32,000 bases of DNA from Edaphobacter aggregans (GTDB lineage: Bacteria; Acidobacteriota; Terriglobia; Terriglobales; Acidobacteriaceae). The DNA lies in NCBI RefSeq assembly GCF_003945235.1, contig NZ_RSDW01000001.1:3450001-3482000 (forward strand). Direction: 5' to 3'. Below the pieces are notes generated by a model. It searched no databases and was not told the origin of the DNA. It was given only the letters and a program-made list of their open reading frames with translations. The position numbers were made by a program, and so were the translations under genes. Numbering within the stretch: position 1 is the first letter of the stretch; each line of letters opens with the position of its first letter. Positions 1 through 25,015 of this stretch are shown in pieces.

Positions 1-35
1 GCGATGGGTAGCGTTAGCCGTTGAAGCGAGAAAAC

Positions 36-1037
36 ATGAGTCGCATATTTGAGGCGTTACAAAGATCGGAAGCCGAACGCTCTGAGATTGATTTGACAGT
101 GGTGTCAGAAGCAACTGAAGTGCTGCGGCGCGTCGAACGTGAATCAGCATTGAAATGGGATACGCCAGGTTCGTCTGAACAGATTGATGCAACGAAAAAC
201 TCTGACCGTGAGATGTTGTTCGGCCAATCAGGGAAGTCGCCGGTAGGGACGACACCTGGAACTCATATAGGCGCCAAGCTTTGGCAGGTTGAAGAGCGGC
301 TGGATCCGTTTGGCCAATTCCAATCCCTGGAGATTTCGCTTACTTCTCAAAGTCGACTGGTAAGTCTGACGGACAGCGGGAGTCCGGCGGCGGAAGCTCT
401 CCGCCTTCTAGGGGTGCGGTTACGACATCTCCGGCGCGATCGGACGCTTAGGAAAGTGCTGATTACGAGCACAATTCCTCAAGAGGGCAAGAGCATGATT
501 GCTGCTAACCTAGCTTGCACTCTCGCTCTAAGGACTCAACAAAGAATTTTAGTGTTGGAGGGAGATTTGCGGCGTCCGTCTTTATCGCGGATGTTCGGGC
601 TCGGAAGGAATCCGGGCCTCTGTGAATGGCTGCGAGGCGAGCGCAGCTTGACGGAGAGTATCTACCATCTCGAAGGCCAGGATCTTTGGATATTGCCCGC
701 AGGCAGTGCTCCCAGCAATGCACTGGAACTACTGCAATCGGGAAAATTATCTGAGCTGATGGATCAATTAACCGTGTTGTTTGATTGGATCATCATCGAT
801 TCTCCTCCCGTACTGCCTTTGGCTGACACAAGCGTCTGGATGCGGTTGGCAGACGGAATTCTTCTAATTACGCGTCAAGGAACCACAGAAAGGCGACAAT
901 TAAAGAAAGGACTCGAAGCGCTCGAGCCTAGAAAGTTGATCGGTGCGCTAGTGAATAGTTCAAAGAACGCGGCAACCAGTGACTACTACTACAGTCCTTC
1001 AACGGCTTCACGGTTGAACGACGCTTCGGCAGAATAA
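36..1037 (+). CDS. BY-kinase-type polysaccharide tyrosine autokinase, cytoplasmic ATPase module (CpsD/CapB/EpsG-like; split Wzc)
   Basis: ORF 21..1037. ATG at 36 gives the N-terminus MSRIFEALQRSE. Motifs: Walker A-like 'PQEGKSMIAANLA', Walker A' 'VLEGDLRRPS', Walker B 'WIIIDSPPVLPLADT', C-terminal Tyr cluster 'SDYYYSPS'. No TM segment, so the Wzz-like membrane partner must be a separate protein, probably upstream of the window. Confidence 0.85.
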   Translation: MSRIFEALQRSEAERSEIDLTVVSEATEVLRRVERESALKWDTPGSSEQIDATKNSDREMLFGQSGKSPVGTTPGTHIGAKLWQVEERLDPFGQFQSLEISLTSQSRLVSLTDSGSPAAEALRLLGVRLRHLRRDRTLRKVLITSTIPQEGKSMIAANLACTLALRTQQRILVLEGDLRRPSLSRMFGLGRNPGLCEWLRGERSLTESIYHLEGQDLWILPAGSAPSNALELLQSGKLSELMDQLTVLFDWIIIDSPPVLPLADTSVWMRLADGILLITRQGTTERRQLKKGLEALEPRKLIGALVNSSKNAATSDYYYSPSTASRLNDASAE

Positions 1038-1210
1038 TTCTCTGATTCTCTTATATCCAAAGTCGCCCCATACAGACCCTATTTACACGAACAGTTCTAA
1101 TCGCTTGTTTTTCTCTTACCTCAAGAAAAAATAAGTTAAGAACAAGCTATGAACAATCGTTCCTAACAGACAACAAAAAAGTAAATTGGCCACAAAGAGA
1201 GGAGTTGGCT

Positions 1211-2365
1211 GTGACTCTGCTGCGTATGGATAAAGCTTCAAATCCGGCTGACCCTCTATTAGAGTGGTTATCCATTGGAACGCGCGAGGTTCTGAACGAA
1301 GGAACCTTTAAGAGAATGATTGCCGTCGAGCGCAAAAGGACGGAGCGTTCCAGGGAGCCGTTCCTTCTTATGTTGCTGGAGGCTGGCAATCCTCAGGGTT
1401 CGGAAAAGAATGGAAAAGTTCTCGACAGTATGCTGTCTGCCCTGCTGGTATCCATCAGGGAAACCGACGTAATCGGCTGGTACAAAGATGGTACTACCGT
1501 TGGTGTAATGTTTACGGGACTCGCGGGCAATGACAAGAACTCGATCCTGAGCGTGATCTTAAGCAAGGTGAGCACGACGCTAAAAGCCCAGTTGACATCA
1601 GACCATCTTAGTCAAGTAAGTATCTCCTTCCATTTCTTTCCCGATGACTGGGGCCATGACAACTCCGGACGCCCAAGCAATCCATCTTTGTATCCGGATC
1701 TGTTGAGCCCGGATAAGCGGAGATGTGTCCTGCTGCGCATCAAACAAGTAATGGATGTTGCCGGAAGTGCACTGATACTAATCCTTTGTACGCCTCTACT
1801 TTTGGTGATTGCAGTGGCAATCAAGGCGTCATCCAAAGGGCCTGTCCTTTTTCGGCAACAGCGAGTCGGACAGTACGGCCAAAGCTTTACATTCCTGAAA
1901 TTCAGATCGATGCACACAAACAATGACCATAGCGTTCACAAAGAGTATGTGACTAAATTAATTGCAGGTGAGGCAGAGCATAAACCGTTCAACGGGAATG
2001 GTGAGGGCGTATATAAGCTCACGAACGATACGCGAGTCACACGAGTAGGAAAATTCTTGCGCAGAACTAGTCTGGATGAGTTGCCACAGCTGGTGAATGT
2101 CCTGAAAGGGGATATGTCGCTTGTCGGCCCTCGTCCGGCAATTCCATATGAGTTGGCAGCATATCAGACGTGGCATCGTCGCCGTGTATTGGGGGTCAAA
2201 CCCGGGATTACTGGGTTGTGGCAGGTTAATGGTCGAAGTAGTGTTAAATTCGACGAAATGGTTCGTTTGGATCTGCGATATGCCACGTCTTGGTCACCTT
2301 GGCTCGACTTTAAGATCCTTATGCTTACCCCTCGTGCGGTGATCAAGGGTGCGGGCGCCTGTTGA
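1211..2365 (+). CDS. Priming polyprenyl-phosphate sugar-1-phosphate transferase (bacterial sugar transferase family) with an N-terminal degenerate GGDEF-like domain
   Basis: The C-terminal half carries 'KGPVLFRQQRVGQYGQSFTFLKFRSM', 'DELPQLVNVLKGDMSLVGPRP' and 'PGITGLWQVNGRS'. One hydrophobic helix, 'GSALILILCTPLLLVIAVAI', lies directly before it (monotopic PglC/WcaJ-C-terminal type). SD AGAGAGGAG at 1196-1204 favours GTG 1211; ATG 1226 is also possible, and the track start TTG 1205 abuts the SD. The N-terminal ~170 aa are discussed in findings. Confidence 0.85.
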   Translation: MTLLRMDKASNPADPLLEWLSIGTREVLNEGTFKRMIAVERKRTERSREPFLLMLLEAGNPQGSEKNGKVLDSMLSALLVSIRETDVIGWYKDGTTVGVMFTGLAGNDKNSILSVILSKVSTTLKAQLTSDHLSQVSISFHFFPDDWGHDNSGRPSNPSLYPDLLSPDKRRCVLLRIKQVMDVAGSALILILCTPLLLVIAVAIKASSKGPVLFRQQRVGQYGQSFTFLKFRSMHTNNDHSVHKEYVTKLIAGEAEHKPFNGNGEGVYKLTNDTRVTRVGKFLRRTSLDELPQLVNVLKGDMSLVGPRPAIPYELAAYQTWHRRRVLGVKPGITGLWQVNGRSSVKFDEMVRLDLRYATSWSPWLDFKILMLTPRAVIKGAGAC

Positions 2366-2541
2366 GTTTCATACATGCCAGAAGGTGTTGTGGCGAAGCT
2401 AGTCTGCGCATCAGAAATACAGCTTTTATCTCACGAGAAATAAGGCAATTCTAGCTCCTTAGAGCCCGCTTCGCCCATTAGGGACGCATCGCCCTCGTAT
2501 ACGCATTTCAATTATCTGTAGTTCGGAGATCCCTGAAAATC

Positions 2542-3540
2542 ATGAACTTCGGCGTCATTGGCTACGGTTACTGGGGACCAAACGTTGTAAGAAATCTTGC
2601 TAGTCTGGAGGATTCCGAGGTATTGGCAATTGCAGACAAAAGTCCAATCGCACGGAAACGTGCACAGAAAGCTTATCCAGGAATCAAAGTAACTCCAAAC
2701 GCTGCAGAGGTGATCTCATCCCCCAAAATTGATGCCGTTGCAGTTATCACTCCAGTCTGGACACACTACGAACTGGCAAAAGCTGCTTTGGAGAATGGCA
2801 AACACGTGTTTGTCGAGAAACCGTTCACCAGCACTGCCGCGCAAGGAGAAGAGCTGATCAGCCTCGCTCTGCAAAAAAATCTAAAGATCATGGTGGATCA
2901 TACCTTCCTCTTCACAGGAGCGGTAAAGAAAATATCACAACTGCTCGACGAAGGAACGCTCGGTAGGCTCTATTATTATGATTCGACTCGCATCAATCTA
3001 GGTCTCTTCCAGCACGATATCAATGTTCTCTGGGATCTTGCGCCGCATGATCTTTCCATCATGGACTACCTTATTAAAGCAAGCCCTGAGGCAATTGTTG
3101 CGACTGGACAGAAGCACCTTAACGGTTGTGAAGATGTTGCCTACATGACCCTCTATTTTCCCGAGAAAGTCATAGCACATATTAATGTCAACTGGCTATC
3201 CCCAGTAAAAGTTAGGACCACTCTCATCGGTGGGGAGAAGCGGATGCTGGTTTGGAATGACCTCGAAGCAGATGAAAAGGTAAAGGTGTATGACCGAGGA
3301 GTTGACATCACGAGCCGCGAAGGCGTCTACGAACTACTTGTTAACTATCGGTCTGGCGATATGTGGGCTCCTCAACTAGAGCAAGTCGAAGCTCTGCGTC
3401 AAGAGCTGACCTACTTTGTAGATTGCATCTCAAGTGGACAGGAGCCTTTTAATAATGGGTGCGCTGGACTGCGAGTAGTCAACATGCTGGAAGCAGCCAG
3501 TGAATCACTGAACAAGAGTGGGGCTCTGGTGCACCTGTGA
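2542..3540 (+). CDS. Gfo/Idh/MocA-family NAD-dependent oxidoreductase, WbpB/WlbA/GnnA-like UDP-HexNAc(A) 3-dehydrogenase
   Basis: Rossmann N-terminus 'FGVIGYGYWGPNVVRNL' and 'VFVEKPF' (EKP motif). The stop overlaps the start of an LbH acetyltransferase, which is followed by a DegT aminotransferase. This is the classic three-gene logic for 3-amino/3-acetamido sugars. Confidence 0.75.
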   Translation: MNFGVIGYGYWGPNVVRNLASLEDSEVLAIADKSPIARKRAQKAYPGIKVTPNAAEVISSPKIDAVAVITPVWTHYELAKAALENGKHVFVEKPFTSTAAQGEELISLALQKNLKIMVDHTFLFTGAVKKISQLLDEGTLGRLYYYDSTRINLGLFQHDINVLWDLAPHDLSIMDYLIKASPEAIVATGQKHLNGCEDVAYMTLYFPEKVIAHINVNWLSPVKVRTTLIGGEKRMLVWNDLEADEKVKVYDRGVDITSREGVYELLVNYRSGDMWAPQLEQVEALRQELTYFVDCISSGQEPFNNGCAGLRVVNMLEAASESLNKSGALVHL

Positions 3541-4043
3541 ACTCGTACAATTGCATTGCGGACGATGTCAAATTGGGAACAAATGTTCGACTGTCGAAGT
3601 TCATAAATCTTTATGGATGCGAAGTCGGTGACGACACGAAGATCGGTGCGTTCGTGGAAATTCAGAAAAATGCCAGCATCGGAAAATGTTGTAAGATCTC
3701 AAGTCACACATTTATCTGCGAGGGAGTGGTTATTGAAGACAACGTCTTCGTCGGGCACGGAGTGACATTTATTAATGACAGCTATCCGCGTGCTACGACT
3801 TTTGAAGGAAATCTACAAACCGAAACGGATTGGAAAGTCGAGCGTACAGTTATAAAAAAAGGCGCATCAATCGGTTCCGGTACTACGATCCTTTCCAATA
3901 CCAATATCGGAGAGAATGCGATCGTGGGTGCCGGCAGCGTAGTCACCAAAGATGTTCCGCCTTACGCCATCGTGGCCGGCAATCCGGCCAAGATCTTGCG
4001 CTACATTGAACAGACTATAAAAGGTCACAATGAACACTTCTAA
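3537..4043 (+). CDS. Left-handed beta-helix (hexapeptide) sugar N-acetyltransferase, WbpD/WlbB-like
   Basis: GTG 3537 overlaps stop TGA 3538-3540 (GTGA coupling). Hexapeptide rungs: 'IGAFVEIQKNASIGKCCKISSHTFICEGVVIEDNVFVGHGVTF' and 'IGSGTTILSNTNIGENAIVGAGSVV'. C-terminal 'VPPYAIVAGNPAKILR'. Confidence 0.75.
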   Translation: MNSYNCIADDVKLGTNVRLSKFINLYGCEVGDDTKIGAFVEIQKNASIGKCCKISSHTFICEGVVIEDNVFVGHGVTFINDSYPRATTFEGNLQTETDWKVERTVIKKGASIGSGTTILSNTNIGENAIVGAGSVVTKDVPPYAIVAGNPAKILRYIEQTIKGHNEHF

Positions 4044-5277
4044 TAACATTCCCTTTATTGACCTCGTCACTCCGCACATAGAGTTAGAGCAAGAACTTAC
4101 TGGTGTATTTCGTCGAGCTCTACAGACAGCCGACTTCGTTGGCGGACCCATGGTCAAGGACTTTGAGGAGGCCTTTGCCACTTTTTGTGACACGAACCAC
4201 TCGATTGCGGTTAGTAGCGGTACTGACGCTTTGCGATTCGCTATTGCAGCATGCGGGGTCAAGTCCGGTGATGTTGTGCTCACTGTGCCACATACATTCA
4301 TCGCAACCACGGAGGCCATTTCGCAAGCTGGTGCTATACCGGAATTTATCGATATTGACGAACACACCTACAACATATCGGTCGAGATGCTTCAGCAGTA
4401 TTTGGAAGAGCAATGCACGCGGACCCGATCGGGCAAGCTCGTCAGCCTTAGAAGCGGACGACCAGTAACTGCGATAGTGCCGGTGCATCTTTATGGTCAG
4501 ATGGCTGATATGGATTCAATCCTGAGGCTAGCGGAACGCTATAGTCTGACAGTGATTGAAGATGCCTGCCAAGCACACGGTGCTGAGTACTTCTCTAAAA
4601 ACCTGAATCGTTGGATGAAAGCTGGTTCGATGGGTCGCGCCGCCGCATTCAGCTTCTACCCGGGAAAAAACCTCGGGGCGTGCGGCGAAGCCGGTGCAAT
4701 CACAACGAATGATGCCGACATAGCCAAAAAGATCAAAATGCTGCGTGATCACGGCCAGACGACAAAGTACTATCACGAAATAGAAGGCTATAATGGACGG
4801 GCGGACGCGATCCAAGCCGGGCTTCTGCACATAAAGTTAGTTCATTTAGCAAAATGGAACGCCCAGCGTCGCGAGCGAGCAGAAGAATATAACCGCTTGC
4901 TGGCAACAAACGATGTCTTGACTCTTCCGCATGAGCCTTCGTGGTCGCGTGCTGTGTATCACCTCTATGTAATCCGCACTAAAGACCGCGGCGGTATGAT
5001 GAATCATTTAAAAAATGTTGGCATTGGGACGGGAATTCATTATCCGGTTCCCCTGCACTTGCAGAAGGCTTATGTCTCACTAAATTACTGTCTGGAAGAC
5101 TTTCCGGTGACGCGAAAAGCCGCTCGCGAAATCCTCTCCCTGCCAATGTTCCCGCAGCTTACAGCAGACAAACAAGCCAGGGTGGCCCAAGAGATTCAGA
5201 TATTTTCTTCCACGGCTCCTCTTAGCCGGGCGGAGAACGAGGATAATCTACTGGTAGCTGCGGATAGAGTTGCATAA
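4030..5277 (+). CDS. DegT/DnrJ/EryC1/StrS-family PLP-dependent sugar aminotransferase (WbpE/WlbC/GnnB-like)
   Basis: Motifs 'GTDALRFAIAACGVKSGDVVLTVPHTFIATTEAI', 'VIEDACQAHGAEY', PLP-lysine context 'AFSFYPGKNLGACGEAGAI' and 'YYHEIEGYNGRADAIQAG'. ATG 4030 overlaps the upstream gene by 14 nt. Confidence 0.85.
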   Translation: MNTSNNIPFIDLVTPHIELEQELTGVFRRALQTADFVGGPMVKDFEEAFATFCDTNHSIAVSSGTDALRFAIAACGVKSGDVVLTVPHTFIATTEAISQAGAIPEFIDIDEHTYNISVEMLQQYLEEQCTRTRSGKLVSLRSGRPVTAIVPVHLYGQMADMDSILRLAERYSLTVIEDACQAHGAEYFSKNLNRWMKAGSMGRAAAFSFYPGKNLGACGEAGAITTNDADIAKKIKMLRDHGQTTKYYHEIEGYNGRADAIQAGLLHIKLVHLAKWNAQRRERAEEYNRLLATNDVLTLPHEPSWSRAVYHLYVIRTKDRGGMMNHLKNVGIGTGIHYPVPLHLQKAYVSLNYCLEDFPVTRKAAREILSLPMFPQLTADKQARVAQEIQIFSSTAPLSRAENEDNLLVAADRVA

Positions 5278-5605: not shown

Positions 5606-6838
5606 ATGCGTAAAAAAGTCGCCATCGCAGTCTGCATTGTCGTAGAAAATCTACCTGTACCTCTTGACAGGCGCGTATGGAAGGAAGCATGCGCACTACG
5701 TGATGCTGGATATCGAGTTTCAGTTATTTGTCCCAAAGGAAAGGGCTTCACTGCGGGATACGAGACTCTTGATGGAATCGAAATCTACCGTCATCGCGTA
5801 TGGGAGGCCTCGGGCGTACTTGGGTATCTTGTGGAGTATAGTGTCGCCCTGACTGCCGAATTGCTTCTGGCGTTAAAAGTCTTTTCCCGCACAAGATTTC
5901 GCATTCTGCAAGCATGCAATCCTCCAGACACGATTTTCCTAATAGGACTACTGCTGAAACCTCTTGGAGTCCGATTTATCTTCGACCAGCACGACCTTGG
6001 TCCAGAACTCTTTGAGGCGAAGTTCGGCAAGCATAGCGGCTTGCTTTATAGGTTAGCTCGATTGTTTGAGCTGTGCTCTTTCCGAGTAGCAAGCACATGT
6101 ATCGCAACAAACGAATCCTTTAGGGATATTGCGATCACCCGTGGAGGAAAGCGTCCGGAAAACGTCTTCATTGTGCGGAACTGCCCCGATATTGCCACAT
6201 TCCGCCGGCTCCAACCTAGAAATGGCAATACGTTTGGCAGATCGCTACTCGTGGTCTATGTGGGCTTCATGGGAACTCAAGATGGTCTGGATTTGCTACT
6301 TGAATCCATCGAACACATCGTGAAATGTGAAAATCGGCAAGACACACATTTTCTTCTCGTCGGGGGAGGACCAATACTTCCGGAGTTGCAGGAAGTAATC
6401 GCTAAGAAGCACTTGGACGCTTTTGTGACTCTCACTGGTCAAGTGTCCCATGCCGAAGTAGTCACCTATCTCTCCCAAGCAGACTTGGGTGTCGCGACAG
6501 ATCCGAAAAATGCAATGAATGATAACTCTACAATGATCAAGATTTTTGAATACATGGCGTTCAATTTGCCAGTCGTACTTTTTGACTTAAAGGAGGGGCG
6601 ACGCATAGCAGACTCCGCAGCGTTGTATGCCATTCCAAATGATCCCATAGATTTTGCCAAACAAATCGGCCGGTTGCTAGATTCTGGGGAACTCCGTCAA
6701 GAACTTGGTCAACGTGGCCGTAGACGGATAGAAGAGAAGTTGAACTGGGAAACAGAAAAAGTGTCCTTACTTCGAGCGTATGAAACAGCGCTTCAGTTTA
6801 CTCACATATTGAGAGTGCAAGAGAACCAGATCCGATGA
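5606..6838 (+). CDS. Glycosyltransferase family 4 (GT-B, group 1)
   Basis: N-terminus 'KVAIAVCIVVENLPVPLDRRVWKEACALRDAGYRVSVICP'. C-terminal donor-binding half: 'VGFMGTQDGLDLLLE', 'LLVGGGP', 'KIFEYMAFNLPVVLFD'. Confidence 0.8.
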   Translation: MRKKVAIAVCIVVENLPVPLDRRVWKEACALRDAGYRVSVICPKGKGFTAGYETLDGIEIYRHRVWEASGVLGYLVEYSVALTAELLLALKVFSRTRFRILQACNPPDTIFLIGLLLKPLGVRFIFDQHDLGPELFEAKFGKHSGLLYRLARLFELCSFRVASTCIATNESFRDIAITRGGKRPENVFIVRNCPDIATFRRLQPRNGNTFGRSLLVVYVGFMGTQDGLDLLLESIEHIVKCENRQDTHFLLVGGGPILPELQEVIAKKHLDAFVTLTGQVSHAEVVTYLSQADLGVATDPKNAMNDNSTMIKIFEYMAFNLPVVLFDLKEGRRIADSAALYAIPNDPIDFAKQIGRLLDSGELRQELGQRGRRRIEEKLNWETEKVSLLRAYETALQFTHILRVQENQIR

Positions 6839-8910
6839 TGGATACAACTGGTTCTCGCGTCCTCTTATTGTCATCCCACACGCGCAGGCGTTTTCCTATA
6901 ACTGGGCAAGCTGGGTGCTACCGTTTCATCTATCGGCTTATATGCACTATGTGTGCTGTCTTCGTTTTAACCTTTACTGCATCTTCTTGGTGCTTTTCAT
7001 CTGGCATTGTTCTAATTCGCTCGGCAGACCCGTCGCCGGAGCAACGCGAACTCGAATTTGCTGCCCGGTTCTATGGGGTTAATTTGGAAGTTGTTACGGC
7101 GAGTGATAGTAACAAAGCCTTCGTACTTGGAGCTATCCGACAGGATGCGAACTTGGCTGTTGCAATTGAGGCGGGGGCACTCAACGATATTAATCCGAAA
7201 GCATTGCTTCAGGCTCTGCATCGAGAGCGAGCAGGCAGTATACCGTTACTGGTTTTTGCCATAACACCAGATGTGGATCAAGTTCTTTTGCGTCAATTGT
7301 CGGGTGGTGCCGTAACCGGCTCAGGATATATAAAAAGTTTATCGGGCTTGCATTATGTGGTTGGACGAGTCGCTGGTCTGACGCAACAATTGACAAATGT
7401 TGATTTCCCAATTTCTGGCAACCACATAAGTTATTTTTACCGAACAGAACACAGCCACGCTCAAGTAATCATCTCAGCCCGAGATAATCATCAAGCCGTT
7501 CCCATATTCCTGGAGGCGGACCTCGGCCAGCAAAAGGTATTTCTGCTATGTAATACACTTCCAAACAATCGCATAACCGATACAATCTCCGAAAGTATGG
7601 AGGCCGGATTTGCAAAAATTGCGCCCGTGATGATGTTTGTGAAGTTTAGTGCCGGCGAACGAGGTTGGCACGCTTTGCATCATTACGCAAACCTAACAAT
7701 CGATGATCCATGGCTTCGTGAGCCATACGGAAATCTAAGTTACGTAGGTCTTCTTGAGGAGATGGAAAAGCACGAATTCCATACAACCATTGCTTTCATT
7801 CCGTGGAATTACGATCGCAGCCAAGCAGATGTTGTTTCACTATTTCGAAATCATCCCAATAGATTTTCGATCGCGATCCACGGAGACAATCACGATCACA
7901 AAGAATTCACCGACTATCGGAGCAAGTCTCTGACAGCACAGGTCGATGACCTTAAGCAAGCCTTAAGCAGAATGGAAAGTTTTCAGAAACTAACAGGAAT
8001 CCCGTATGACAAAGTAATGATATTTCCTCACAGCATCGCACCAAAAGAGATGCTGGGAGCCCTCAAGACATACAACTATTCCGCCACCGTTAACTCGTCA
8101 AATGTTCCTCAAAATATCACTAGGCCCACGAACATGTCTGAGGCTCTCCGACCCGTTACATTGTTGTTCGATGGATTTCCCAGCATCAGTCGTTACTCCA
8201 CGGCAGTGCAAGTCCCGGAAGCGTACGTAGCTATTAATCAGTTTCTCGGAAATCCATTGTTTTTTTACGATCACTCAGAATTGTTTTCGCAGGGCATCGG
8301 CGCCTTCGACCCAGTGGCAGACGAAGTGAACAGACTTGAACCGGCTACCGAATGGCGTAGCTTAGGGGAAATCGTAAGGCATCTCTACGTCGTAAAACTT
8401 CGAAATGATTCCAATTATGACGTCCAATCATTTTCAAGTAACATTTGTTTGGAAAACGGAATCGGTCGAAGCTCGATATTCTACGTGCAAAAGCAGGAGA
8501 CAGGTGGCCAAACGATAGCCTCTGTTACTGTAGATGGAATAACTTATCCCTACAGTTTTCAAAAAGGTCAAATTAGCCTCGATATACCTGTTCCTTTGGG
8601 AGGCACGCGCTGCATATCGATCCAATATGCAAATGATTTGGAATTGGATCCGATCGGCCCGAAGCACGACTCTATCGTTGTCTACCTGCTTCGAATGGGA
8701 TCCGACTTTCGAGATATTTATTTGGCAAAGTCGAGCGCTGGTCTTGTAGCCATTCATTTCTATAACAAGCATGGGCTAAAGCCAGCTAAAGTAATTGGCT
8801 ATCTAGTTATTTTCTTGACCACGTTGATCTACGCCTGCTTCCGTCTGTGGATATCTGTAAAAAAGCGTTTTCTATCAAATCATCAGATTTCGCCGTCCCT
8901 AACGAACTGA
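6835..8910 (+). CDS. Large membrane protein anchored at both ends, function unknown, with a central NodB/DUF2334-like (putative deacetylase) motif pair
   Basis: 691-aa ORF with ATGA start/stop overlap to the upstream GT4. Hydrophobic segments near both ends: 'LICTMCAVFVLTFTASSWCF' and 'VIGYLVIFLTTLIYACFRLWI'. The central 'NLTIDDPWLREPYG ... TIAFIPWNYD ... FSIAIHGDNHDHKEF' resembles the T-[FI]-D-D and His-x3-His motifs of the polysaccharide deacetylase fold. The remaining ~450 aa are unrecognised. Confidence 0.5.
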   Translation: MMDTTGSRVLLLSSHTRRRFPITGQAGCYRFIYRLICTMCAVFVLTFTASSWCFSSGIVLIRSADPSPEQRELEFAARFYGVNLEVVTASDSNKAFVLGAIRQDANLAVAIEAGALNDINPKALLQALHRERAGSIPLLVFAITPDVDQVLLRQLSGGAVTGSGYIKSLSGLHYVVGRVAGLTQQLTNVDFPISGNHISYFYRTEHSHAQVIISARDNHQAVPIFLEADLGQQKVFLLCNTLPNNRITDTISESMEAGFAKIAPVMMFVKFSAGERGWHALHHYANLTIDDPWLREPYGNLSYVGLLEEMEKHEFHTTIAFIPWNYDRSQADVVSLFRNHPNRFSIAIHGDNHDHKEFTDYRSKSLTAQVDDLKQALSRMESFQKLTGIPYDKVMIFPHSIAPKEMLGALKTYNYSATVNSSNVPQNITRPTNMSEALRPVTLLFDGFPSISRYSTAVQVPEAYVAINQFLGNPLFFYDHSELFSQGIGAFDPVADEVNRLEPATEWRSLGEIVRHLYVVKLRNDSNYDVQSFSSNICLENGIGRSSIFYVQKQETGGQTIASVTVDGITYPYSFQKGQISLDIPVPLGGTRCISIQYANDLELDPIGPKHDSIVVYLLRMGSDFRDIYLAKSSAGLVAIHFYNKHGLKPAKVIGYLVIFLTTLIYACFRLWISVKKRFLSNHQISPSLTN

Positions 8911-9903: not shown

Positions 9904-11805
9904 ATGTGTGGAATCTGCGGCAAATTTGCCTTCGGGCCTAACGAGACTGTGTCGCCCGAGCTAGTGCGGGCGATGGCTGCCACGATTCGCCATCGTGGTC
10001 CAGACGACGAGGGGTACTACGTCTCGGGTCCGGTTGGGCTGGGCTTCCGCCGGCTTTCCATTATTGATCTTCAAAGTGGTCACCAACCTCTTTCAAACGA
10101 AGACGGTTCAATATGGATCGTCTTCAACGGAGAAATCTATAACTACCAGGAACTCCGCTCGCTTCTCTTAAGCAAAGGGCATGTCTTCAAGACCAAGACT
10201 GACACAGAAGTAATCATTCACCTTTATGAGGAGTATGGGCCTGATTGTCTAAAGGAATTGCGTGGGATGTTTGCCTTCGCTATATGGGATGGCAATGCAA
10301 AGACTTTGTTTCTCGCGAGAGATCGGGTAGGAATCAAGCCGCTTTACTATTGCCTAGATGATTCATGTTTAGTTTTCGCGTCTGAAATCAAAGCAATACT
10401 AGCTGATCCTTCGATTGACAGACAGATAGCTCCCGAACTCATCGATCGATTTCTGACCTTTCTGTATGTGCCGGGCGAGGAGACGCTCCTCAATGGAATT
10501 TCCAAGTTGGCCCCGGGGCACTACCTACTCGTCAATGATGGCAAGGCGATAATTAGACAATACTGGGACCTGCGTTTCAGAGAGCCACTAGAGGCCGTGA
10601 GCGCTCAAGATGCAGAAGCCGGCTTGCGGGATCTTTTGATTGAGACCGTCGGGCTGCACATGATCGCGGATGTTCCAGTGGGTATTCTTCTGAGTGGAGG
10701 GATTGATTCCACAGGAATATTGAGCCTCGCTGTGAATGCTACGGATAAGAAGATCAGCACTTTTACAGTAGGGTTTTCCGGAAACGAAATTGCAGATGAG
10801 AGGCCCTTTGCAAGGCTAGTCGCCGACAAATTTGGAACCCAGCACTATGACATGACGATTTCGGCCGATGATTTCGCGGCATTCCTGCCCCGATACATAT
10901 GGCACATGGAAGAACCGGTCTGTGAACCTCCGGCCATCGCACTTTATTATGTTTCCAAACTGGCGAAAAAATATGTTACGGTGCTTCTCTCAGGAGAAGG
11001 TGGAGACGAAGCATTTGCAGGTTACAGCAATTATCGAAACCTGGTTTGGCTTGAGCGTCTCAAGGCAAACGGCTCTTGGTTGAACAGCATCTTCGCCAAA
11101 GGATTTTCCCTCGCCGACTCATTGCTTGGCTCCCGTCGATTATCTGAATACGGGCCATTGATGAAGGAACACTTTCCGGACTATTACTACAGTCGCACGT
11201 CAAATCCCAATCGTTTTACTGGAAACGGGTTGGGTAAGGTTTACTCTTCTGATTTTGCGGAAGCAATTGACCGTGAACATAGTCTCGAACCAGTGCGCAG
11301 GCTGCAAAACCACGTCCGAGACCATAACACACTCGACGCGATGCTTTACATCGACACCAAGACCTGGTTGCCAGACGATCTTCTGATCAAAGCAGACAAA
11401 ATGACGATGGCCAACTCGATTGAACTTCGCGTGCCATTGTTAGACCACCGAGTGTTGGAATTTGCAGCATCACTGCCTCCCAGTCTCAAACTGAAGGGTC
11501 ACAATACGAAGTACATCTTGAAACAGGCACTCTCGCAGAAAATTCCAAATGAGATCCGCAATCGGAAAAAGGCTGGATTCCCAGTACCTTACGAATCGTG
11601 GCTTCGGAATGATCTAAAGGATGTCATCTGGGACGTGTTGACAGACAGCAAGACAATCAGCAGAGGCTATTTTCGCAAAGCTGCGATAGAAAGCTTGCTC
11701 AAGGCCAACTCGAACGGTGCCAACTACTCCAAAGAGATATTTTCTCTGCTCAGCCTTGAGTTGTGGCAACGAACATTTCTGGATAAGGAACAAGTTGCCT
11801 TATAG
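9904..11805 (+). CDS. Asparagine synthase (glutamine-hydrolysing)-family amidotransferase, EPS-locus type
   Basis: N-terminal Cys nucleophile 'MCGICG'. GATase-II motifs 'RGPDDEG', 'GHQPL', 'IVFNGEIYNY'. PP-loop 'LLSGGIDSTGI', then 'LLSGEGGDEAFAGY'. 633 aa. Confidence 0.9.
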   Translation: MCGICGKFAFGPNETVSPELVRAMAATIRHRGPDDEGYYVSGPVGLGFRRLSIIDLQSGHQPLSNEDGSIWIVFNGEIYNYQELRSLLLSKGHVFKTKTDTEVIIHLYEEYGPDCLKELRGMFAFAIWDGNAKTLFLARDRVGIKPLYYCLDDSCLVFASEIKAILADPSIDRQIAPELIDRFLTFLYVPGEETLLNGISKLAPGHYLLVNDGKAIIRQYWDLRFREPLEAVSAQDAEAGLRDLLIETVGLHMIADVPVGILLSGGIDSTGILSLAVNATDKKISTFTVGFSGNEIADERPFARLVADKFGTQHYDMTISADDFAAFLPRYIWHMEEPVCEPPAIALYYVSKLAKKYVTVLLSGEGGDEAFAGYSNYRNLVWLERLKANGSWLNSIFAKGFSLADSLLGSRRLSEYGPLMKEHFPDYYYSRTSNPNRFTGNGLGKVYSSDFAEAIDREHSLEPVRRLQNHVRDHNTLDAMLYIDTKTWLPDDLLIKADKMTMANSIELRVPLLDHRVLEFAASLPPSLKLKGHNTKYILKQALSQKIPNEIRNRKKAGFPVPYESWLRNDLKDVIWDVLTDSKTISRGYFRKAAIESLLKANSNGANYSKEIFSLLSLELWQRTFLDKEQVAL

Positions 11806-11809
11806 TAAA

Positions 11810-12859
11810 TTGACGGAATCCGCGATTAGCCTCGCGGCCAAAGGGTTTTGGCGTACGCCATACCGCTTTAGGCTTGCACGCGCAATCGGCCCTTCATATT
11901 CATTGCGTTGCGTAGTCTTCCATAATATTTCGGACGTTCAGTCGCCGTTTACCAACGGTATTAGGGTTACCACTACTCCGAAGAAATTCGAAGGGGCGCT
12001 AAGATTTATAACCTCCTACTATGTTCCCGTACGCCTTCAAGATCTTCTAACAAATTGTGATGGCCGTGGGTTACCACCCCGCGCAATGCTTGTTACATTC
12101 GACGATGCCTATGCATCGGTTGCCGAGTGGGCCGCGCCTCTCTGCCGACAATTTGCCGTGCCAGCAGTTTTTTTTGTAAACGCTGCGTTTCTTGATAATC
12201 AACGCCTTGCACCGGACAATCTTGTCTGCTATGTCGCTAATGTGCTGGGAATGGAGACAATCAAAGCGGCGGTCCGCGCCGTCCCAGGCCGCGAAACCTT
12301 CCAACTGCACTCTCTTACCGATGTTTTCGGAAGTTTTTTTCCGGTCATCTCGCTAAGAGAAAGGGAGGCCTTTCTTGAAGCGTTGCGTCAATTGGCTGGT
12401 ATCAACGAAAGTCGCCTTGCAAATGAAGCTTGCCTGTACATGACCAGCAAACAATTATGTAACCTAGGATCTTTCGACTTCGAAATCGGAAACCACACGT
12501 ATACACACACACACTTCAGGTCTCTCTCGCAGCAGGATTTCGTTTCAGAAGTTGACAGGAATAAGGCGGAATTGGAGGCCTTGCTAGGAACAAAGATACG
12601 TTCATTTAGCCAGCCCTACGGTTCTGCTGAGGATCTCACTTGTGAGTTAGCGAAGCATCTCGAACGCTCAGGGCACCAAGCCATATTTTTGAGCGAGAGC
12701 GTTGCCAATCCTCGAAGGCTTGACCTGTCCCATCTCAACAGGATCAGTACCTGTGCCCCAAGTGATGACGCGCTGTTCTTCGAAATCGAAGTTTTGCCAC
12801 GCCTTCGGGCGATACGAAATCGGATTTTCAAAACCCCGCTTCCATTTGCGGCGGCGTAA
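11810..12859 (+). CDS. Polysaccharide deacetylase (NodB homology / CE4 family)
   Basis: 'AMLVTFDDAYASV' (motif 1), 'FEIGNHTYTHTHF' (motif 2, H-[ST]-x-x-H), 'FSQPYGS' (motif 3-like). TTG 11810 lies 4 nt after the upstream TAG and is the first in-frame start beyond that stop. The track start at 11717 would overlap the amidotransferase by 89 nt. Confidence 0.8.
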   Translation: MTESAISLAAKGFWRTPYRFRLARAIGPSYSLRCVVFHNISDVQSPFTNGIRVTTTPKKFEGALRFITSYYVPVRLQDLLTNCDGRGLPPRAMLVTFDDAYASVAEWAAPLCRQFAVPAVFFVNAAFLDNQRLAPDNLVCYVANVLGMETIKAAVRAVPGRETFQLHSLTDVFGSFFPVISLREREAFLEALRQLAGINESRLANEACLYMTSKQLCNLGSFDFEIGNHTYTHTHFRSLSQQDFVSEVDRNKAELEALLGTKIRSFSQPYGSAEDLTCELAKHLERSGHQAIFLSESVANPRRLDLSHLNRISTCAPSDDALFFEIEVLPRLRAIRNRIFKTPLPFAAA

Positions 12860-12928
12860 ATTTGCTCATCGTTTAAAAGGACGCCTGAAAATCGAAAAAG
12901 CAACTGCCTTAGCGGAGAATGGTGCACA

Positions 12929-12977
<49 letters not shown>

Positions 12978-13035
12978 AAGTCCAAATGTTTATATTGGCT
13001 CAACTTAGTACAACGGTGGGCTTAACTAAATCTCC

Positions 13036-14133
13036 ATGTCTAATTCTGTTTGGCAAGTTGAAGTGGACCGCGCAACGCCCGTCGAATGGTCACGGATGCT
13101 TGATCTTTTCGACGACGCGAACATCTATCAGACAGCAGCATATGGTAGCGTCCGTTGGGGTGAGAGAAGTTTGAGTCGTCTCGTATTAAAGAGAGACAAC
13201 GAAGTCATGGGGATGGCCCAACTCAGAATCATTCGTCCCACTCCGCTCAAATTTGGGATGGCTTATCTGCGTTGGGGGCCCCTCTGGGAACGGCGTTGCC
13301 GGACTCTCGATCCCGAGGTTCCTATTCGTCTGGCCGCTGCTATTGAGGAAGAATACTCTAAAACGAGGAAACTCTTCGTGAGCATTCTTCCTAACGCTTT
13401 TACCGGATCGCCGCGGGCCGAAGTATTTCAGTCTGCTTTTTCGAAATTTGTTCGGGATGCCAACGGACCTGGTGATATATACCGAACTTTCCTTATGGAT
13501 ATTAGTCCGCCACTTGAAGAGTTGCGGAGCAAACTCGATGCGAAATGGCGAAACAAGCTTAAGGGATCCGAAAAAAATAATTTGACAGTGATCTCTGGAA
13601 ATGGGAGGGAAGAGTATCGCACCTTCAGCGAGATCTACTCCCAGATGCGCCGGCGCAAGGCGTTTCAAACGACAGTAGATGTTGATGAATTCGGGCGGAT
13701 ACAGGAGGCTCTCCCGGAATCACAACGCTTGCGCGTTCTGATCTGTCAAAATGAGGGTGTTCCCGTGGCTGGCCTCGTTGCCTCGGCGATGGGCGAATCC
13801 GCTATTTACCTGCTTGGCGCCACCAGTGACGCCGGATTGAATTCCAAGGGCGCCTATCTCTTACAGTGGACCTTGATTTCTTGGCTCAAGAAACACGGTA
13901 TTAAATCGTATGACCTCGGAGGTATTGATCCCGAAGGGAATCCGGGCGTCCATTATTTCAAGAGAGGGCTTTCGGGCGTGGACATTTGTCAGATTAGCCC
14001 ATTCTTTGTGTCAGAGAGCGTCGTCTCTTCCGGGGTCGCCATGATAGGTCTGGGAATCCAACGCACGCTTCACTTCTCCTTAGGAGCTCTAAACCGTGGC
14101 CACTTCATCAAACAGCCTGCGGCCAGAAGTTAG
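13036..14133 (+). CDS. FemAB-related / GNAT-fold (aminoacyl)transferase, EPS-locus type
   Basis: 365 aa. 'DDANIYQTAAYGSVRW' and 'AIYLLGATSDAGLNSKGAYLLQWTLISWLKKHGIKSYDLGGI' resemble FemAB-family proteins found in PEP-CTERM-type EPS loci. By-eye assignment only. Confidence 0.65.
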   Translation: MSNSVWQVEVDRATPVEWSRMLDLFDDANIYQTAAYGSVRWGERSLSRLVLKRDNEVMGMAQLRIIRPTPLKFGMAYLRWGPLWERRCRTLDPEVPIRLAAAIEEEYSKTRKLFVSILPNAFTGSPRAEVFQSAFSKFVRDANGPGDIYRTFLMDISPPLEELRSKLDAKWRNKLKGSEKNNLTVISGNGREEYRTFSEIYSQMRRRKAFQTTVDVDEFGRIQEALPESQRLRVLICQNEGVPVAGLVASAMGESAIYLLGATSDAGLNSKGAYLLQWTLISWLKKHGIKSYDLGGIDPEGNPGVHYFKRGLSGVDICQISPFFVSESVVSSGVAMIGLGIQRTLHFSLGALNRGHFIKQPAARS

Positions 14134-20519: not shown

Positions 20520-20784
20520 GAGTTCGATAGCCGAACTAACGATGGGCTTCCACCGCTTGCTGGCAGATGTCGGCAGCCCGCACTGAACTTTGGCAGCCAG
20601 ACGTGGTCTACCTCGACGACGCAGAAGGGGAACGTGGGGCGCTCCTTTAGGGGTGTTAGTGCGCATTGTTAGCGGAAAGAGACGATCCTAAGTCTATTGG
20701 GATCTATGCCTGCTGTCGGGCGGAAATGCGAAACAGGTAGCAGACCGCAAGCAGAACCCATAAGAGAGAGGCAGAGGTGTGAGA

Positions 20785-24995: not shown

Positions 24996-25015
24996 AAGCG
25001 GTGTTAGAAAAGCCC

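What the first reader, a model, noticed from the sequence alone, without database searches (positions are those of the whole stretch)
1211..1720. Priming phosphoglycosyl transferase fused to a degenerate GGDEF-like domain that retains an RxxD I-site: candidate c-di-GMP gate on EPS initiation
About 170 cytoplasmic residues precede the single membrane helix and the ~200-aa PglC-type catalytic core. By eye they align colinearly with a diguanylate-cyclase fold. 'FKRMIAVERKRTERSREPFLLMLLEAG' matches the '...ELARARRYGRPLSLLMLDID' helix/strand. 'VLDSMLSALLVSIRETDVIGWYKDGTTVGVMFTGL' matches '[34 protein letters not shown]'. 'VSISFHFF' matches the 'VTVSIGVA' strand. The active-site GG(D/E)EF is replaced by KDGTT (nt 1484-1498) and the metal-binding D-x-F-K-x-x-N-D segment is absent, so it should not make c-di-GMP. 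An RxxD motif (RETD, nt 1457-1468) sits exactly five residues upstream of the GGDEF position. That is the inhibitory/I-site geometry used by degenerate-GGDEF c-di-GMP receptors such as PelD. Placing such a receptor directly on the committed first enzyme of a Wzx/Wzy pathway would be a very direct control point. I do not know of a characterised example.
Basis: partly seen in the sequence, partly recalled or inferred. Interest (0 to 1): 0.72.

Follow-up and report, generated by a model that had tools for sequence, protein, structure and literature searches.

The report
Sugar-priming enzyme with dead GGDEF sensor
The enzyme that starts exopolysaccharide synthesis in this soil acidobacterium carries a catalytically dead diguanylate-cyclase-like domain that keeps only the residues other such domains use to bind c-di-GMP, so it may be the first case of this signal acting directly on the first step of a Wzx/Wzy pathway, although binding has not been tested.

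Summary
ORF 1211-2365 (+) encodes a small monotopic phosphoglycosyl transferase (PF02397, E 1.3e-66). About 150 N-terminal cytoplasmic residues are unannotated.

That domain is a truncated, diverged GGDEF fold:
- The AlphaFold core has pLDDT around 90, and all 50 best Foldseek PDB matches are GGDEF domains.
- A diverse family profile finds only GGDEF domains as its top 7 PDB hits.
- hhalign against PleD, SiaD and 3IGN gives 90.7% probability (E 1.2e-6).
- 17 of 49 family members hit Pfam GGDEF below threshold.

The alignment puts RETD (nt 1457-1468) on the PleD I-site R359/D362, five residues before a variable hairpin (KDGTT) that replaces GGEEF. The GTP-binding segments are deleted.

In sequences down to 26% identity, the only invariant charged residues are R85, D88 and R45. 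R45 aligns with PleD R313, the secondary I-site. K/R121 is near-invariant.

The fusion occurs in at least 576 species genomes, nearly all Acidobacteriaceae/Terriglobales, and in 2333 protein clusters. It always sits N-terminal to the transferase. It usually lies in a conserved tyrosine-kinase, PGT and diacetamido-sugar gene block.

Binding of c-di-GMP and gating of the enzyme are inferred, not shown (about 0.45). I found no published description. Verdict: a new variant of a known receptor type, worth testing.

The parts
1211..2365 (+). Whole gene: GGDEF-like domain, linker, re-entrant helix and PF02397 phosphoglycosyl transferase. 384 aa from GTG 1211; the mechanical ORF starts at TTG 1205.
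   Evidence: ORF list. Homologues start MTLLR/MSLLR. RBS AGGAG lies upstream. An intact full-length fusion is present in 71 of 80 related genome loci.
1298..1639 (+). Core of the degenerate GGDEF-like domain (residues 32-145, numbered from TTG 1205). Order of elements: helix a0, strand b1, long helix, b2-b3 hairpin, helix a3, strand b4.
   Evidence: AF2 pLDDT is about 90 over this span. The 50 best Foldseek PDB hits are all GGDEF. hmmsearch of family profile A3: top 7 PDB hits are GGDEF. hhalign 90.7%, E 1.2e-6. 17 of 49 members hit PF00990 below threshold.
1328..1351 (+). ERKRTERS motif in helix a0 (E42-S49). R45 is invariant and aligns with PleD R313, the secondary I-site. E42/R45/R48 match the ExxRxxR pattern of canonical GGDEF a0 helices.
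   Evidence: Invariance. Alignment to PleD, SiaD, 3IGN and GcbC.
1379..1381 (+). E59 at the end of strand b1. It aligns with the first metal-binding Asp of GGDEF (PleD D327). The FKxxNDxxGH segment that should follow is deleted.
   Evidence: hhalign. The position is D/E in 34 of 49 diverse members and variable otherwise.
1457..1468 (+). RETD: an RxxD motif at the I-site position (R85, D88). Candidate c-di-GMP contact.
   Evidence: Coordinates. Aligned to PleD R359/D362, GcbC RPAD and SiaD REYD. R and D are invariant in every alignment made.
1475..1483 (+). G91-W92-Y93 in strand b2. G and W are invariant. W92 takes the place of PleD R366, next to the former active site.
1484..1498 (+). KDGTT: the hairpin tip that replaces GG(D/E)EF. 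Variable within the family, so it is not a conserved active site.
   Evidence: Hairpin lies between strands 89-93 and 98-103. Variation across members.
1565..1567 (+). K121 in helix a3. Basic (R or K) in 48 of 49 and 73 of 73 sequences. Candidate counterpart of PleD R390 / PelD R402, with the register uncertain by one helical turn.
   Evidence: The ungapped HMMER/hhalign register puts it 4 residues after the R390 position. Aligning the helix starts puts it on R390 (inference).
1625..1702 (+). Strongly conserved end of strand b4 and linker: SFHFFPDDW ... GRPSNPsLYPDL. It joins the sensor-like domain to the membrane helix.
   Evidence: Conservation in 73 full-length sequences. pLDDT is only 60-70.
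1715..1831 (+). Hydrophobic helix-break-helix with a Thr-Pro dyad (T196-P197). This is the re-entrant membrane helix of a monotopic PGT, so the N-terminal domain is cytoplasmic.
   Evidence: Single hydrophobic segment. AF2 helices 169-192 and 194-207 (GTG 1211 numbering) break at the T-P dyad. Comparison with the PglC Ser-Pro dyad comes from established knowledge.
1742..2347 (+). PF02397 catalytic domain, including the Asp-Glu dyad in LDELPQ (nt 2072-2089).
   Evidence: Pfam E 1.3e-66. NCBIfam EPS_sugtrans 283 bits. Motif coordinates.
21..1037 (+). Upstream polysaccharide tyrosine autokinase-like P-loop protein. It has no TM segment and is the conserved neighbour of the fusion gene.
   Evidence: TIGR01007 119.3 bits, above the 108 cut-off. 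Directly upstream on the same strand in 68 of 80 loci.
2542..5277 (+). Conserved downstream block: Gfo/Idh/MocA (UDP-GlcNAc 3-dehydrogenase-like), hexapeptide acetyltransferase and DegT aminotransferase. Likely supplies a diacetamido sugar donor for the PGT.
   Evidence: Present downstream in 61-73 of 80 loci. Substrate assignment is inference.

Best explanation
Residues are numbered from TTG 1205.

The gene encodes a small monotopic (PglC-type) phosphoglycosyl transferase. This enzyme starts a Wzx/Wzy-type exopolysaccharide by transferring a sugar-1-phosphate to undecaprenyl phosphate.

Its first ~150 residues are cytoplasmic and form a cut-down GGDEF (diguanylate cyclase) fold. The fold has lost the GGDEF loop, the GTP-binding FKxxND/GH segment and the C-terminal phosphate-binding part. 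It therefore cannot make c-di-GMP.

What it has kept, invariantly, are the positions that GGDEF domains use for allosteric product binding:
- RxxD (R85, D88), the primary I-site.
- R45, the PleD R313 position (secondary I-site).
- A basic residue, K/R121, on helix a3.

The most likely mechanism is that the domain is an I-site-type c-di-GMP receptor. Probably it binds an intercalated c-di-GMP dimer that bridges two such domains, or the two copies in tandem variants. Ligand binding would be passed through the conserved SFHFFPDDW...GRPSNPxLYPDL linker to the re-entrant helix and active site. Polysaccharide initiation would then follow cellular c-di-GMP. Activation is the expected direction by analogy with PelD.

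Shown: domain identity, loss of catalytic residues, conservation pattern, cytoplasmic location, distribution.
Inferred: c-di-GMP binding, stoichiometry, coupling to catalysis, and its direction.
For: Fold and homology:
- AF2 core pLDDT is about 90.
- Foldseek PDB top 50 are all GGDEF, including PleD, WspR and PelD 4EUV. 6KHU gives TM 0.70, rmsd 2.6.
- The family profile's top 7 PDB sequence hits are all GGDEF (E 0.0016-0.16).
- hhalign gives 90.7%, E 1.2e-6.
- 17 of 49 members hit PF00990, best E 4e-4. No other family is hit by more than one member.

I-site register:
- R85=R359, D88=D362, R45=R313.

Selection pattern:
- In 49 sequences down to 26% identity, the only invariant positions are R45, R85, D88, G91, W92 and P146.
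- K/R121 is conserved in 48 of 49 and 73 of 73.
- The hairpin at the GGDEF position varies freely.
- The N-domain is conserved almost as well as the catalytic domain (0.75 vs 0.80).

Architecture and distribution:
- The domain is always N-terminal to PF02397.
- 71 of 80 genome loci carry the intact fusion.
- At least 576 species loci and 2333 clusters at 50% identity.
- Tandem-domain variants keep R45, R85, D88, G91 and W92 in both copies. The basic residue at 121 is not kept in every copy.

Cytoplasmic location:
- Single hydrophobic helix-break-helix at a T-P dyad.

Precedent:
- In PelD, R367/D370/R402 (B. cereus R363/D366/R395) of a degenerate GGDEF bind c-di-GMP and are needed for Pel production (PMC7112168).
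- From my own knowledge, RxxD is dispensable for the GGDEF fold, because many cyclases lack it. Its invariance here therefore argues for a ligand or partner contact.
Against: - No binding or activity data exist.
- The window protein itself has no Pfam, NCBIfam or PDB sequence hit in the N-domain.
- The domain lacks the last third of a GGDEF fold.
- The R390/R402 equivalent is placed only to within one helical turn.
- G91-W92 and SFHFFPDDW are equally invariant and are not I-site elements, so another function may drive conservation.
- The full-length AF2 model gives no confident interdomain geometry (pTM 0.45).
- Small monoPGTs are reported to act as monomers (PMC12802240), which does not fit a simple dimerisation switch.
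- No diguanylate cyclase, phosphodiesterase or c-di-GMP riboswitch lies in the window or in the ±4 kb flanks of the 80 loci.
- Whether these organisms make c-di-GMP was not checked here. My knowledge says Acidobacteria encode GGDEF/EAL proteins.
Confidence: 0.45

Rival explanations
1. The GGDEF-derived domain is a nucleotide-independent scaffold. It would dimerise the enzyme or dock a partner, such as the co-encoded tyrosine autokinase, the chain-length regulator or the next glycosyltransferase. On this view R45/R85/D88 are conserved because they form an interface or an internal salt-bridge network, not a ligand site.
For: - The tyrosine-kinase-like gene lies directly upstream in 68 of 80 loci.
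- Y93 is nearly invariant next to G91-W92.
- PGTs are known kinase targets: CapM and WcaJ, as summarised in PMC12802240.
- The C-terminal third of the GGDEF fold is absent.
- Non-I-site motifs are invariant too.
- EpsW activates EpsZ purely by protein-protein contact.
Against: - Three of the six invariant positions (R45, R85, D88) map onto c-di-GMP-contacting residues of PleD, WspR and PelD.
- RxxD is not needed for the fold in canonical cyclases (own knowledge).
- Gene adjacency to the kinase is typical of EPS loci in general and is not specific evidence of contact.
Confidence: 0.3
2. The domain is a sensor, but for a different small molecule. Candidates are another cyclic dinucleotide, (p)ppGpp, GTP, or a UDP-sugar or UMP feedback signal. 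Binding would be at the I-site remnant or at the remodelled former active-site face around W92.
For: - W92 replaces the phosphate-binding R366 and is invariant, which suggests a remodelled pocket.
- PDB entries 9G85 and 9G86 show that PleD can bind (p)ppGpp together with c-di-GMP (titles).
- The third arginine of the classical I-site is not securely placed.
Against: - The guanine-binding residues of the GTP site (the N335/D344 segment) are deleted.
- The hairpin is variable.
- No positive evidence points to any alternative ligand.
- The conserved set is the classical c-di-GMP set.
Confidence: 0.15
3. The resemblance to GGDEF is fortuitous. On this view the region is a generic ferredoxin-like alpha/beta domain, or a leftover linker, with no relation to diguanylate cyclases.
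For: - The window protein alone has no significant hit to Pfam GGDEF, NCBIfam or PDB sequences.
- Identity to GGDEF domains is 13-20%.
- The first, shallow-profile hhalign gave only 8.5% probability.
Against: - 50 of the 50 top structural hits are GGDEF.
- The diverse profile hits GGDEF only.
- hhalign gives 90.7%.
- 17 of 49 members hit PF00990.
- Motif-by-motif colinearity holds for ExxRxxR, b1 plus an acidic residue, RxxD-x5-hairpin, and b4.
Confidence: 0.03

Closest known systems
PelD (Pseudomonas aeruginosa, Bacillus cereus): degenerate-GGDEF I-site c-di-GMP receptor of the Pel polysaccharide machinery
   Same: - Catalytically dead GGDEF fold with an intact RxxD.
- Attached to the membrane and dedicated to one exopolysaccharide locus.
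- The PelD structure 4EUV is among the Foldseek hits.
- Its binding residues R367/D370/R402 correspond to R85/D88 and possibly K/R121.
   Different: - PelD is a separate TM-GAF-GGDEF protein in a synthase-dependent pathway. It is not fused to an enzyme.
- PelD keeps the full-length GGDEF fold.
- Here the domain is truncated, lacks a GAF domain, and is fused directly to the initiating phosphoglycosyl transferase of a Wzx/Wzy-type pathway.
- Binding is proven for PelD and untested here.
PleD and WspR: allosteric product inhibition sites of active diguanylate cyclases
   Same: - RxxD lies five residues before the hairpin.
- There is an a0 arginine (PleD R313, WspR R198 from my knowledge). With RxxD it can clamp an intercalated c-di-GMP dimer between two GGDEF domains.
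- R85, D88 and R45 align to these positions.
   Different: - PleD and WspR are active cyclases, and their I-site switches off their own catalysis.
- Here there is no cyclase activity to inhibit, and the output would be a fused transferase.
PglC (Campylobacter): small monotopic phosphoglycosyl transferases, PF02397
   Same: - Catalytic domain (PF02397, E 1.3e-66; PglC 8G1N is hit by the profile).
- Re-entrant helix with a hydroxyl-Pro dyad.
- Asp-Glu dyad.
- Neighbouring genes for a diacetamido sugar.
   Different: PglC is about 200 aa with no N-terminal extension. This protein has about 170 extra cytoplasmic residues that form the GGDEF-like domain.
EpsW-EpsZ (Myxococcus xanthus), and receiver-domain fusions of small monoPGTs
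   Same: - Post-translational control applied directly to the initiating PGT of a Wzx/Wzy pathway by a signalling domain (PMC12802240).
- The same paper cites an earlier survey that reported regulatory-domain fusions, including receiver domains, in small monoPGTs.
   Different: - EpsW is a separate phosphorylated receiver protein acting on a large dimeric PGT.
- The signal there is phosphorylation, not a nucleotide.
- No GGDEF-type fusion is mentioned in the text available here.
PDB 6KHU: 131-aa 'DGC protein' from Thermotoga maritima
   Same: - Best match by both sequence profile (E 0.0016) and structure (TM 0.70, rmsd 2.6 Å).
- It is also a short, degenerate GGDEF-like domain lacking the FKxxND segment.
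   Different: - It has RVPLD (one residue longer than RxxD) and no GW motif.
- Its context and function are unknown. No paper was found.

Membership tests
GGDEF domain superfamily (PF00990 fold) | Fold: a0 helix, b1, helices, b2-b3 hairpin, a3, b4 (palm-like) | tested here: met
   AF2 secondary-structure order with pLDDT about 90. The Foldseek top 50 are all GGDEF, probability 1.00. The last helix/strand of the canonical domain is absent.
GGDEF domain superfamily (PF00990 fold) | Sequence match to the family profile at the curated threshold | tested here: not met
   No PF00990 hit for the window protein even at E<=10. 17 of 49 relatives hit below threshold, best E 4e-4. Profile-profile comparison gives 90.7%. 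This indicates remote homology, not formal Pfam membership.
Active diguanylate cyclases | GG(D/E)EF active-site loop | tested here: not met
   KDGTT sits at that position and varies across the family.
Active diguanylate cyclases | GTP/Mg-binding residues: DxD-FKxxND-GH segment and C-terminal K...GRN | tested here: not met
   The FKxxNDxxGH segment is deleted and the C-terminal segment is absent. Only the first acidic residue (E59) partly remains.
Degenerate-GGDEF I-site c-di-GMP receptors (PelD, PopA, PssE type) | RxxD five residues upstream of the (degenerate) GGDEF position | tested here: met
   RETD-VIGWY-KDGTT. It aligns to PleD R359/D362 and GcbC RPAD. Invariant in all alignments.
Degenerate-GGDEF I-site c-di-GMP receptors (PelD, PopA, PssE type) | Additional arginine completing the site (PleD R390 / PelD R402; or a0 Arg, PleD R313) | tested here: inconclusive
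   R45 aligns with R313 and is invariant. K/R121 is conserved, but the alignment register places it at R390+4. No model coordinates were available to check the geometry.
Degenerate-GGDEF I-site c-di-GMP receptors (PelD, PopA, PssE type) | Demonstrated c-di-GMP binding that depends on RxxD | not testable with these tools
   This needs DRaCALA, ITC or a co-structure.
Small monotopic phosphoglycosyl transferases (PglC-like) | PF02397 catalytic domain with the Asp-Glu dyad | tested here: met
   PF02397 covers residues 180-381, E 1.3e-66. LDELPQ at nt 2072-2089.
Small monotopic phosphoglycosyl transferases (PglC-like) | Single re-entrant membrane helix broken at a Ser/Thr-Pro dyad, with no further TM helices | tested here: met
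   One hydrophobic segment. AF2 shows a helix-break-helix at T196-P197. Topology in the membrane itself was not tested.
Large monotopic PGTs (WbaP / WcaJ / EpsZ type) | Four N-terminal TM helices plus a cytoplasmic nucleotide-binding-like domain; full-length match to the TIGR03022/03023 models | tested here: not met
   Only the C-terminal ~200 residues match. Scores are 252 and 244 bits against cut-offs of 403 and 411. There is a single hydrophobic segment.
TIGR03013 XrtA/PEP-CTERM system sugar transferase (EpsB_2) | Score above the curated cut-off | tested here: not met
   150 bits against a cut-off of 393, although the locus layout resembles PEP-CTERM-type EPS loci.

The most novel reading that the evidence does not exclude
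The N-terminal domain would be the founding member of a new class of c-di-GMP effector: a minimal, four-stranded GGDEF remnant that is only an I-site.

An intercalated c-di-GMP dimer would clamp two such domains, with R85/D88/K121 of one and R45 of the other. In tandem variants it would clamp the two copies within one chain. This would switch on the fused phosphoglycosyl transferase.

That would be the first direct second-messenger control of the committed, undecaprenyl-phosphate-consuming step of a Wzx/Wzy pathway. It would operate across the dominant soil Acidobacteriaceae.
Probability: 0.35. Interest if true: 0.82.

Novelty: new variant of a known kind. Interest (0 to 1): 0.7.

Why it matters
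How Wzx/Wzy-dependent polysaccharide pathways are controlled after translation is described as poorly understood in a 2025 paper (PMC12802240). Known c-di-GMP control of polysaccharides acts on synthase-dependent systems such as cellulose, alginate, Pel and PNAG.

A receptor domain fused to the initiating transferase would put the signal at the step that commits scarce undecaprenyl phosphate. It would do so in a single polypeptide, which makes the question directly testable with one purified protein and three point mutants.

The family is large: 2333 clusters and at least 576 species genomes. It belongs to Acidobacteriaceae, among the most abundant soil bacteria, whose exopolysaccharides affect soil aggregation and desiccation tolerance.

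It also defines a GGDEF-derived domain that is not annotated. Public names seen here say only 'sugar transferase' or 'glycosyltransferase', and there is no Pfam model. Domain censuses of c-di-GMP signalling therefore miss it.

Tried and rejected
- Direct searches with the window's N-terminal 172 residues found nothing relevant. I tried Pfam, NCBIfam and PDB by phmmer.
- The first family profile (A1) still contained part of the transferase. It hit only WbaP and PglC in the PDB.
- The first hhalign, with a shallow family alignment, gave only 8.5% probability. Widening the family alignment to 26% identity (A3) was needed.
- The protein database returned only fragments and frameshifted versions under 300 aa. 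Whether the fusion is real had to be settled from genome loci.
- The full-length AF2 model was poor in the catalytic half (pLDDT 40-60, pTM 0.45). It says nothing about how the two domains touch.
- No model coordinates are exposed. I therefore could not check the spatial clustering of R45, R85, D88 and K121.
- I looked for canonical GGDEF genes in the window and in the 80 loci and found none.
- I looked for c-di-GMP riboswitches or any Rfam family in the window and found none.
- The promoter/terminator scan around the gene was at background level.
- Literature searches found no description of this fusion. Terms covered PGT + GGDEF, degenerate GGDEF + sugar transferase, c-di-GMP + PGT, and Acidobacteria + c-di-GMP.
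- The monoPGT fusion survey (PNAS 2021) and the PelD structure paper are not held. I could not check whether that survey lists this architecture.
- P0133, an aspartokinase-ACT fusion in front of the domain, was judged a probable gene-call or assembly artefact and was not used.
- Two loci are labelled Victivallales and betaproteobacterium (L044, L050). They look like binning errors among otherwise acidobacterial hits, so I did not take them as evidence of wider distribution.
Full report
**Numbering.** Residues are numbered from TTG 1205 throughout. Subtract 2 for the probable GTG 1211 start.

**What is there.**
- The region lies in one ORF, 1205/1211-2365 on the + strand.
- Homologues begin MTLLR or MSLLR, and an AGGAG precedes GTG 1211.
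- Pfam places a complete PF02397 bacterial sugar transferase domain at residues 180-381 (E 1.3e-66).
- NCBIfam models for large WbaP/WcaJ-type enzymes match only their C-terminal ~200 positions and stay below their cut-offs.
- There is a single hydrophobic stretch. In the full-length model it forms a helix-break-helix at a Thr-Pro dyad, and LDELPQ carries the Asp-Glu dyad.
- This is the anatomy of a small monotopic, PglC-type phosphoglycosyl transferase. The ~170 residues before the membrane helix are therefore cytoplasmic.
- RETD is at nt 1457-1468 and KDGTT at nt 1484-1498, exactly as reported.

**Is the N-terminal region a GGDEF fold?**
- Taken alone it has no hit in Pfam, NCBIfam or PDB sequences.
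- Its homologues form a large family: 171 word-index hits, and 2333 clusters at 50% identity in an exhaustive HMMER search, 1385 of them at or below 1e-10.
- With a 121-sequence alignment, AlphaFold2 gives a confident core (pLDDT about 90 for residues 30-150). The order is helix 32-49, strand 53-60, helix 63-83, hairpin 89-93/98-103, helix 111-129, strand 138-145.
- Foldseek against the PDB returns GGDEF domains for all 50 best matches (E down to 1e-5, probability 1.00). These include PleD, WspR, DgcZ-type enzymes and the receptor PelD. The best is 6KHU (TM 0.70, rmsd 2.6 Å).
- Sequence evidence agrees once the family alignment is made diverse (A3, 49 sequences down to 26% identity):
  - hmmsearch against 177,635 PDB sequences puts seven GGDEF domains on top, with E from 0.0016 to 0.16.
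  - hhalign against PleD, SiaD and 3IGN gives 90.7% probability, E 1.2e-6 over 91 columns.
  - 17 of the 49 members individually hit Pfam GGDEF below threshold (best E 4e-4). No other Pfam family is hit by more than one member.
- I regard GGDEF ancestry as established (about 0.9).

**Register and what has been lost.**
- The RxxD-x5 spacing is therefore canonical.
- In helix a0, E42/R45/R48 match the ExxRxxR pattern of real cyclases. R45 falls on PleD R313.
- E59 falls on the first metal-binding Asp.
- The FKxxNDxxGH segment, which contributes the guanine contacts, is deleted.
- Everything after strand b4, including the K...GRN phosphate contacts, is absent.
- The domain cannot be a cyclase.

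**Selection pattern.**
- In the diverse alignment the only invariant columns are R45, R85, D88, G91, W92 and P146.
- Position 121 on helix a3 is R or K in 48 of 49 and 73 of 73 sequences.
- The four residues at the former GGDEF loop vary freely.
- Across 73 full-length species-level sequences, the N-domain is conserved almost as well as the catalytic domain (mean top-residue frequency 0.75 vs 0.80).
- The active site has therefore decayed, while the three invariant charged positions (plus the basic position 121) map onto residues that known GGDEF domains use to hold c-di-GMP at the inhibitory site.
- PelD uses R367/D370/R402. B. cereus PelD uses R363/D366/R395, and loss of any one of these abolishes binding (PMC7112168).
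- Whether K/R121 is the true counterpart of R390/R402 is uncertain. The ungapped alignments put it one helical turn later on the same face. Aligning the helix starts puts it on R390. I could not inspect model coordinates.

**Distribution and context.**
- A scan of one genome per species found more than 576 loci encoding a relative. Nearly all are Acidobacteriaceae/Terriglobales, including the cultured Tunturiibacter lichenicola, T. psychrotolerans, Silvibacterium bohemicum and strain KBS 89.
- In 71 of the 80 best loci the intact domain-PF02397 fusion is present. The rest are frameshifts or contig ends.
- Every architecture examined has the domain N-terminal to PF02397.
- Three metagenomic proteins carry two tandem copies of the domain. 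Each copy retains the a0 arginine and R-x-[TS]-D-x-x-G-W. One of these was confirmed on a 30.5-kb contig.
- Gene order is conserved in 61-73 of 80 loci: tyrosine-autokinase-like P-loop protein, fusion PGT, Gfo/Idh/MocA (UDP-GlcNAc 3-dehydrogenase-like), hexapeptide acetyltransferase, DegT aminotransferase.
- In Tunturiibacter a Wzz/GumC-like protein and an AAA ATPase lie further upstream. This layout is reminiscent of PEP-CTERM-type EPS loci.
- The rest of the window holds GT2 and GT4 transferases, an AsnB-type amidotransferase, a deacetylase, a FemAB-like protein, a methyltransferase, a Wzx-type flippase and two multi-TM ORFs that could be the polymerase.
- A Wzx/Wzy-type pathway is therefore a fair description.

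**Mechanism.**
- Most likely (about 0.45) the domain is an I-site-type c-di-GMP receptor that controls the fused transferase.
- The presence of both a primary-site (RxxD) and a secondary-site (a0 Arg) equivalent, and the existence of tandem-domain variants, suggests that an intercalated c-di-GMP dimer bridges two domains, as in PleD and WspR.
- The invariant SFHFFPDDW...GRPSNPxLYPDL linker would carry the change to the re-entrant helix.
- By analogy with PelD, activation is the expected direction.
- All of this is inference.

**Rivals.**
- A nucleotide-independent docking or dimerisation domain, perhaps for the adjacent kinase (0.3).
- A sensor for another nucleotide (0.15).
- Chance resemblance (0.03).

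**Points against the favoured model.**
- The fold is truncated.
- The third arginine is not securely placed.
- G91-W92 is invariant and faces the former active site rather than the I-site.
- Small monoPGTs are reported to be monomers.
- There are no nearby c-di-GMP genes or riboswitches.
- The full-length model is uninformative.

**Comparison with the known, and novelty.**
- The mechanism would resemble PelD, PssE, YdaK and PopA, which are degenerate GGDEF I-site receptors.
- It fails formal Pfam GGDEF membership and has a different architecture.
- Its catalytic half is an ordinary small monoPGT.
- Direct regulation of an initiating PGT is known for EpsW-EpsZ and for tyrosine phosphorylation of CapM, but not by c-di-GMP.
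- That 2025 paper states that post-translational control of Wzx/Wzy pathways is incompletely understood, and that c-di-GMP control is characteristic of synthase-dependent systems.
- Six literature searches found no description of a PGT-GGDEF fusion.
- The 2021 survey of monoPGT fusions is not held, so prior listing of the architecture cannot be excluded.
- Public annotations of family members seen here say only 'sugar transferase' or 'glycosyltransferase'.
- I class it as a new variant of a known kind, with interest 0.7. The domain assignment is solid, the family is large and ecologically relevant, and the hypothesis can be tested with one protein and a few point mutants.

Noticed in passing
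window 1205-1720; proteins P0001-P0120: All 120 listed database homologues of the N-domain are shorter than 300 aa. Many end in frameshifted tails (for example P0001, P0003, P0016). Full-length ~384-aa forms appeared only in genome loci and in the representative library. The protein index therefore under-represents the intact fusion.
   Followed up: yes
P0121 (L081 894-2780), P0125, P0148: Metagenomic variants carry two tandem copies of the GGDEF-like domain in front of PF02397. Each copy keeps the a0 arginine and R-x-[TS]-D-x-x-G-W. This hints that the functional unit is a pair of domains.
   Followed up: partly
window 21-5277; L001-L080: The gene order is conserved in 61-73 of 80 acidobacterial loci: tyrosine-autokinase-like protein, fusion PGT, UDP-GlcNAc 3-dehydrogenase-like Gfo/Idh/MocA, hexapeptide acetyltransferase, DegT aminotransferase. 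It probably makes a 2,3-diacetamido sugar donor for the PGT.
   Followed up: partly
L006 250-3822: In Tunturiibacter lichenicola the kinase gene is preceded by a Wzz/GumC-like chain-length protein (525 aa) and an AAA ATPase (326 aa). This layout resembles PEP-CTERM/XrtA-associated EPS loci. The window is cut just before this region.
   Followed up: no
window 6835-8910, 16294-17940, 19119-20519, 20779-22593: Four large ORFs (691, 548, 466 and 604 aa) have no Pfam or NCBIfam match. The 466-aa and 604-aa ones have 9 and 7 TM-like segments, making them Wzy polymerase or ligase candidates. The 548-aa one starts with a signal-like hydrophobic segment.
   Followed up: partly
PDB 6KHU (external): A 131-aa Thermotoga maritima 'DGC protein' is the closest solved structure and sequence. 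It shares the deletion of the FKxxND segment. No paper mentioning the entry was found, so a second family of minimal degenerate GGDEF domains may exist without a known function.
   Followed up: partly
window 9904-14133: An AsnB-type glutamine amidotransferase, a polysaccharide deacetylase and a FemAB/GNAT-like protein lie together. This suggests amidation or aminoacylation of the polysaccharide.
   Followed up: no
window 23994-24995 and 24809-26020: The GT2 ORF and the following methyltransferase ORF overlap by 187 nt as mechanically called. The methyltransferase domain starts only at residue ~170, so its true start is probably further downstream.
   Followed up: no
window 30079-31479: An AMP-forming acyl-CoA ligase-like gene lies at the end of the cluster. 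It has weak similarity to the exosortase-A-associated ligase model TIGR03098 (66.7 bits, far below the cut-off).
   Followed up: no
P0133 (905 aa): One representative has aspartokinase plus ACT domains fused in front of the GGDEF-like domain and PGT. This is probably a merged gene call or an assembly artefact rather than a real architecture.
   Followed up: no
L044, L050: Two related loci come from MAGs labelled Victivallales and betaproteobacterium, although their sequences are 65-75% identical to the acidobacterial proteins. These are likely binning errors.
   Followed up: no
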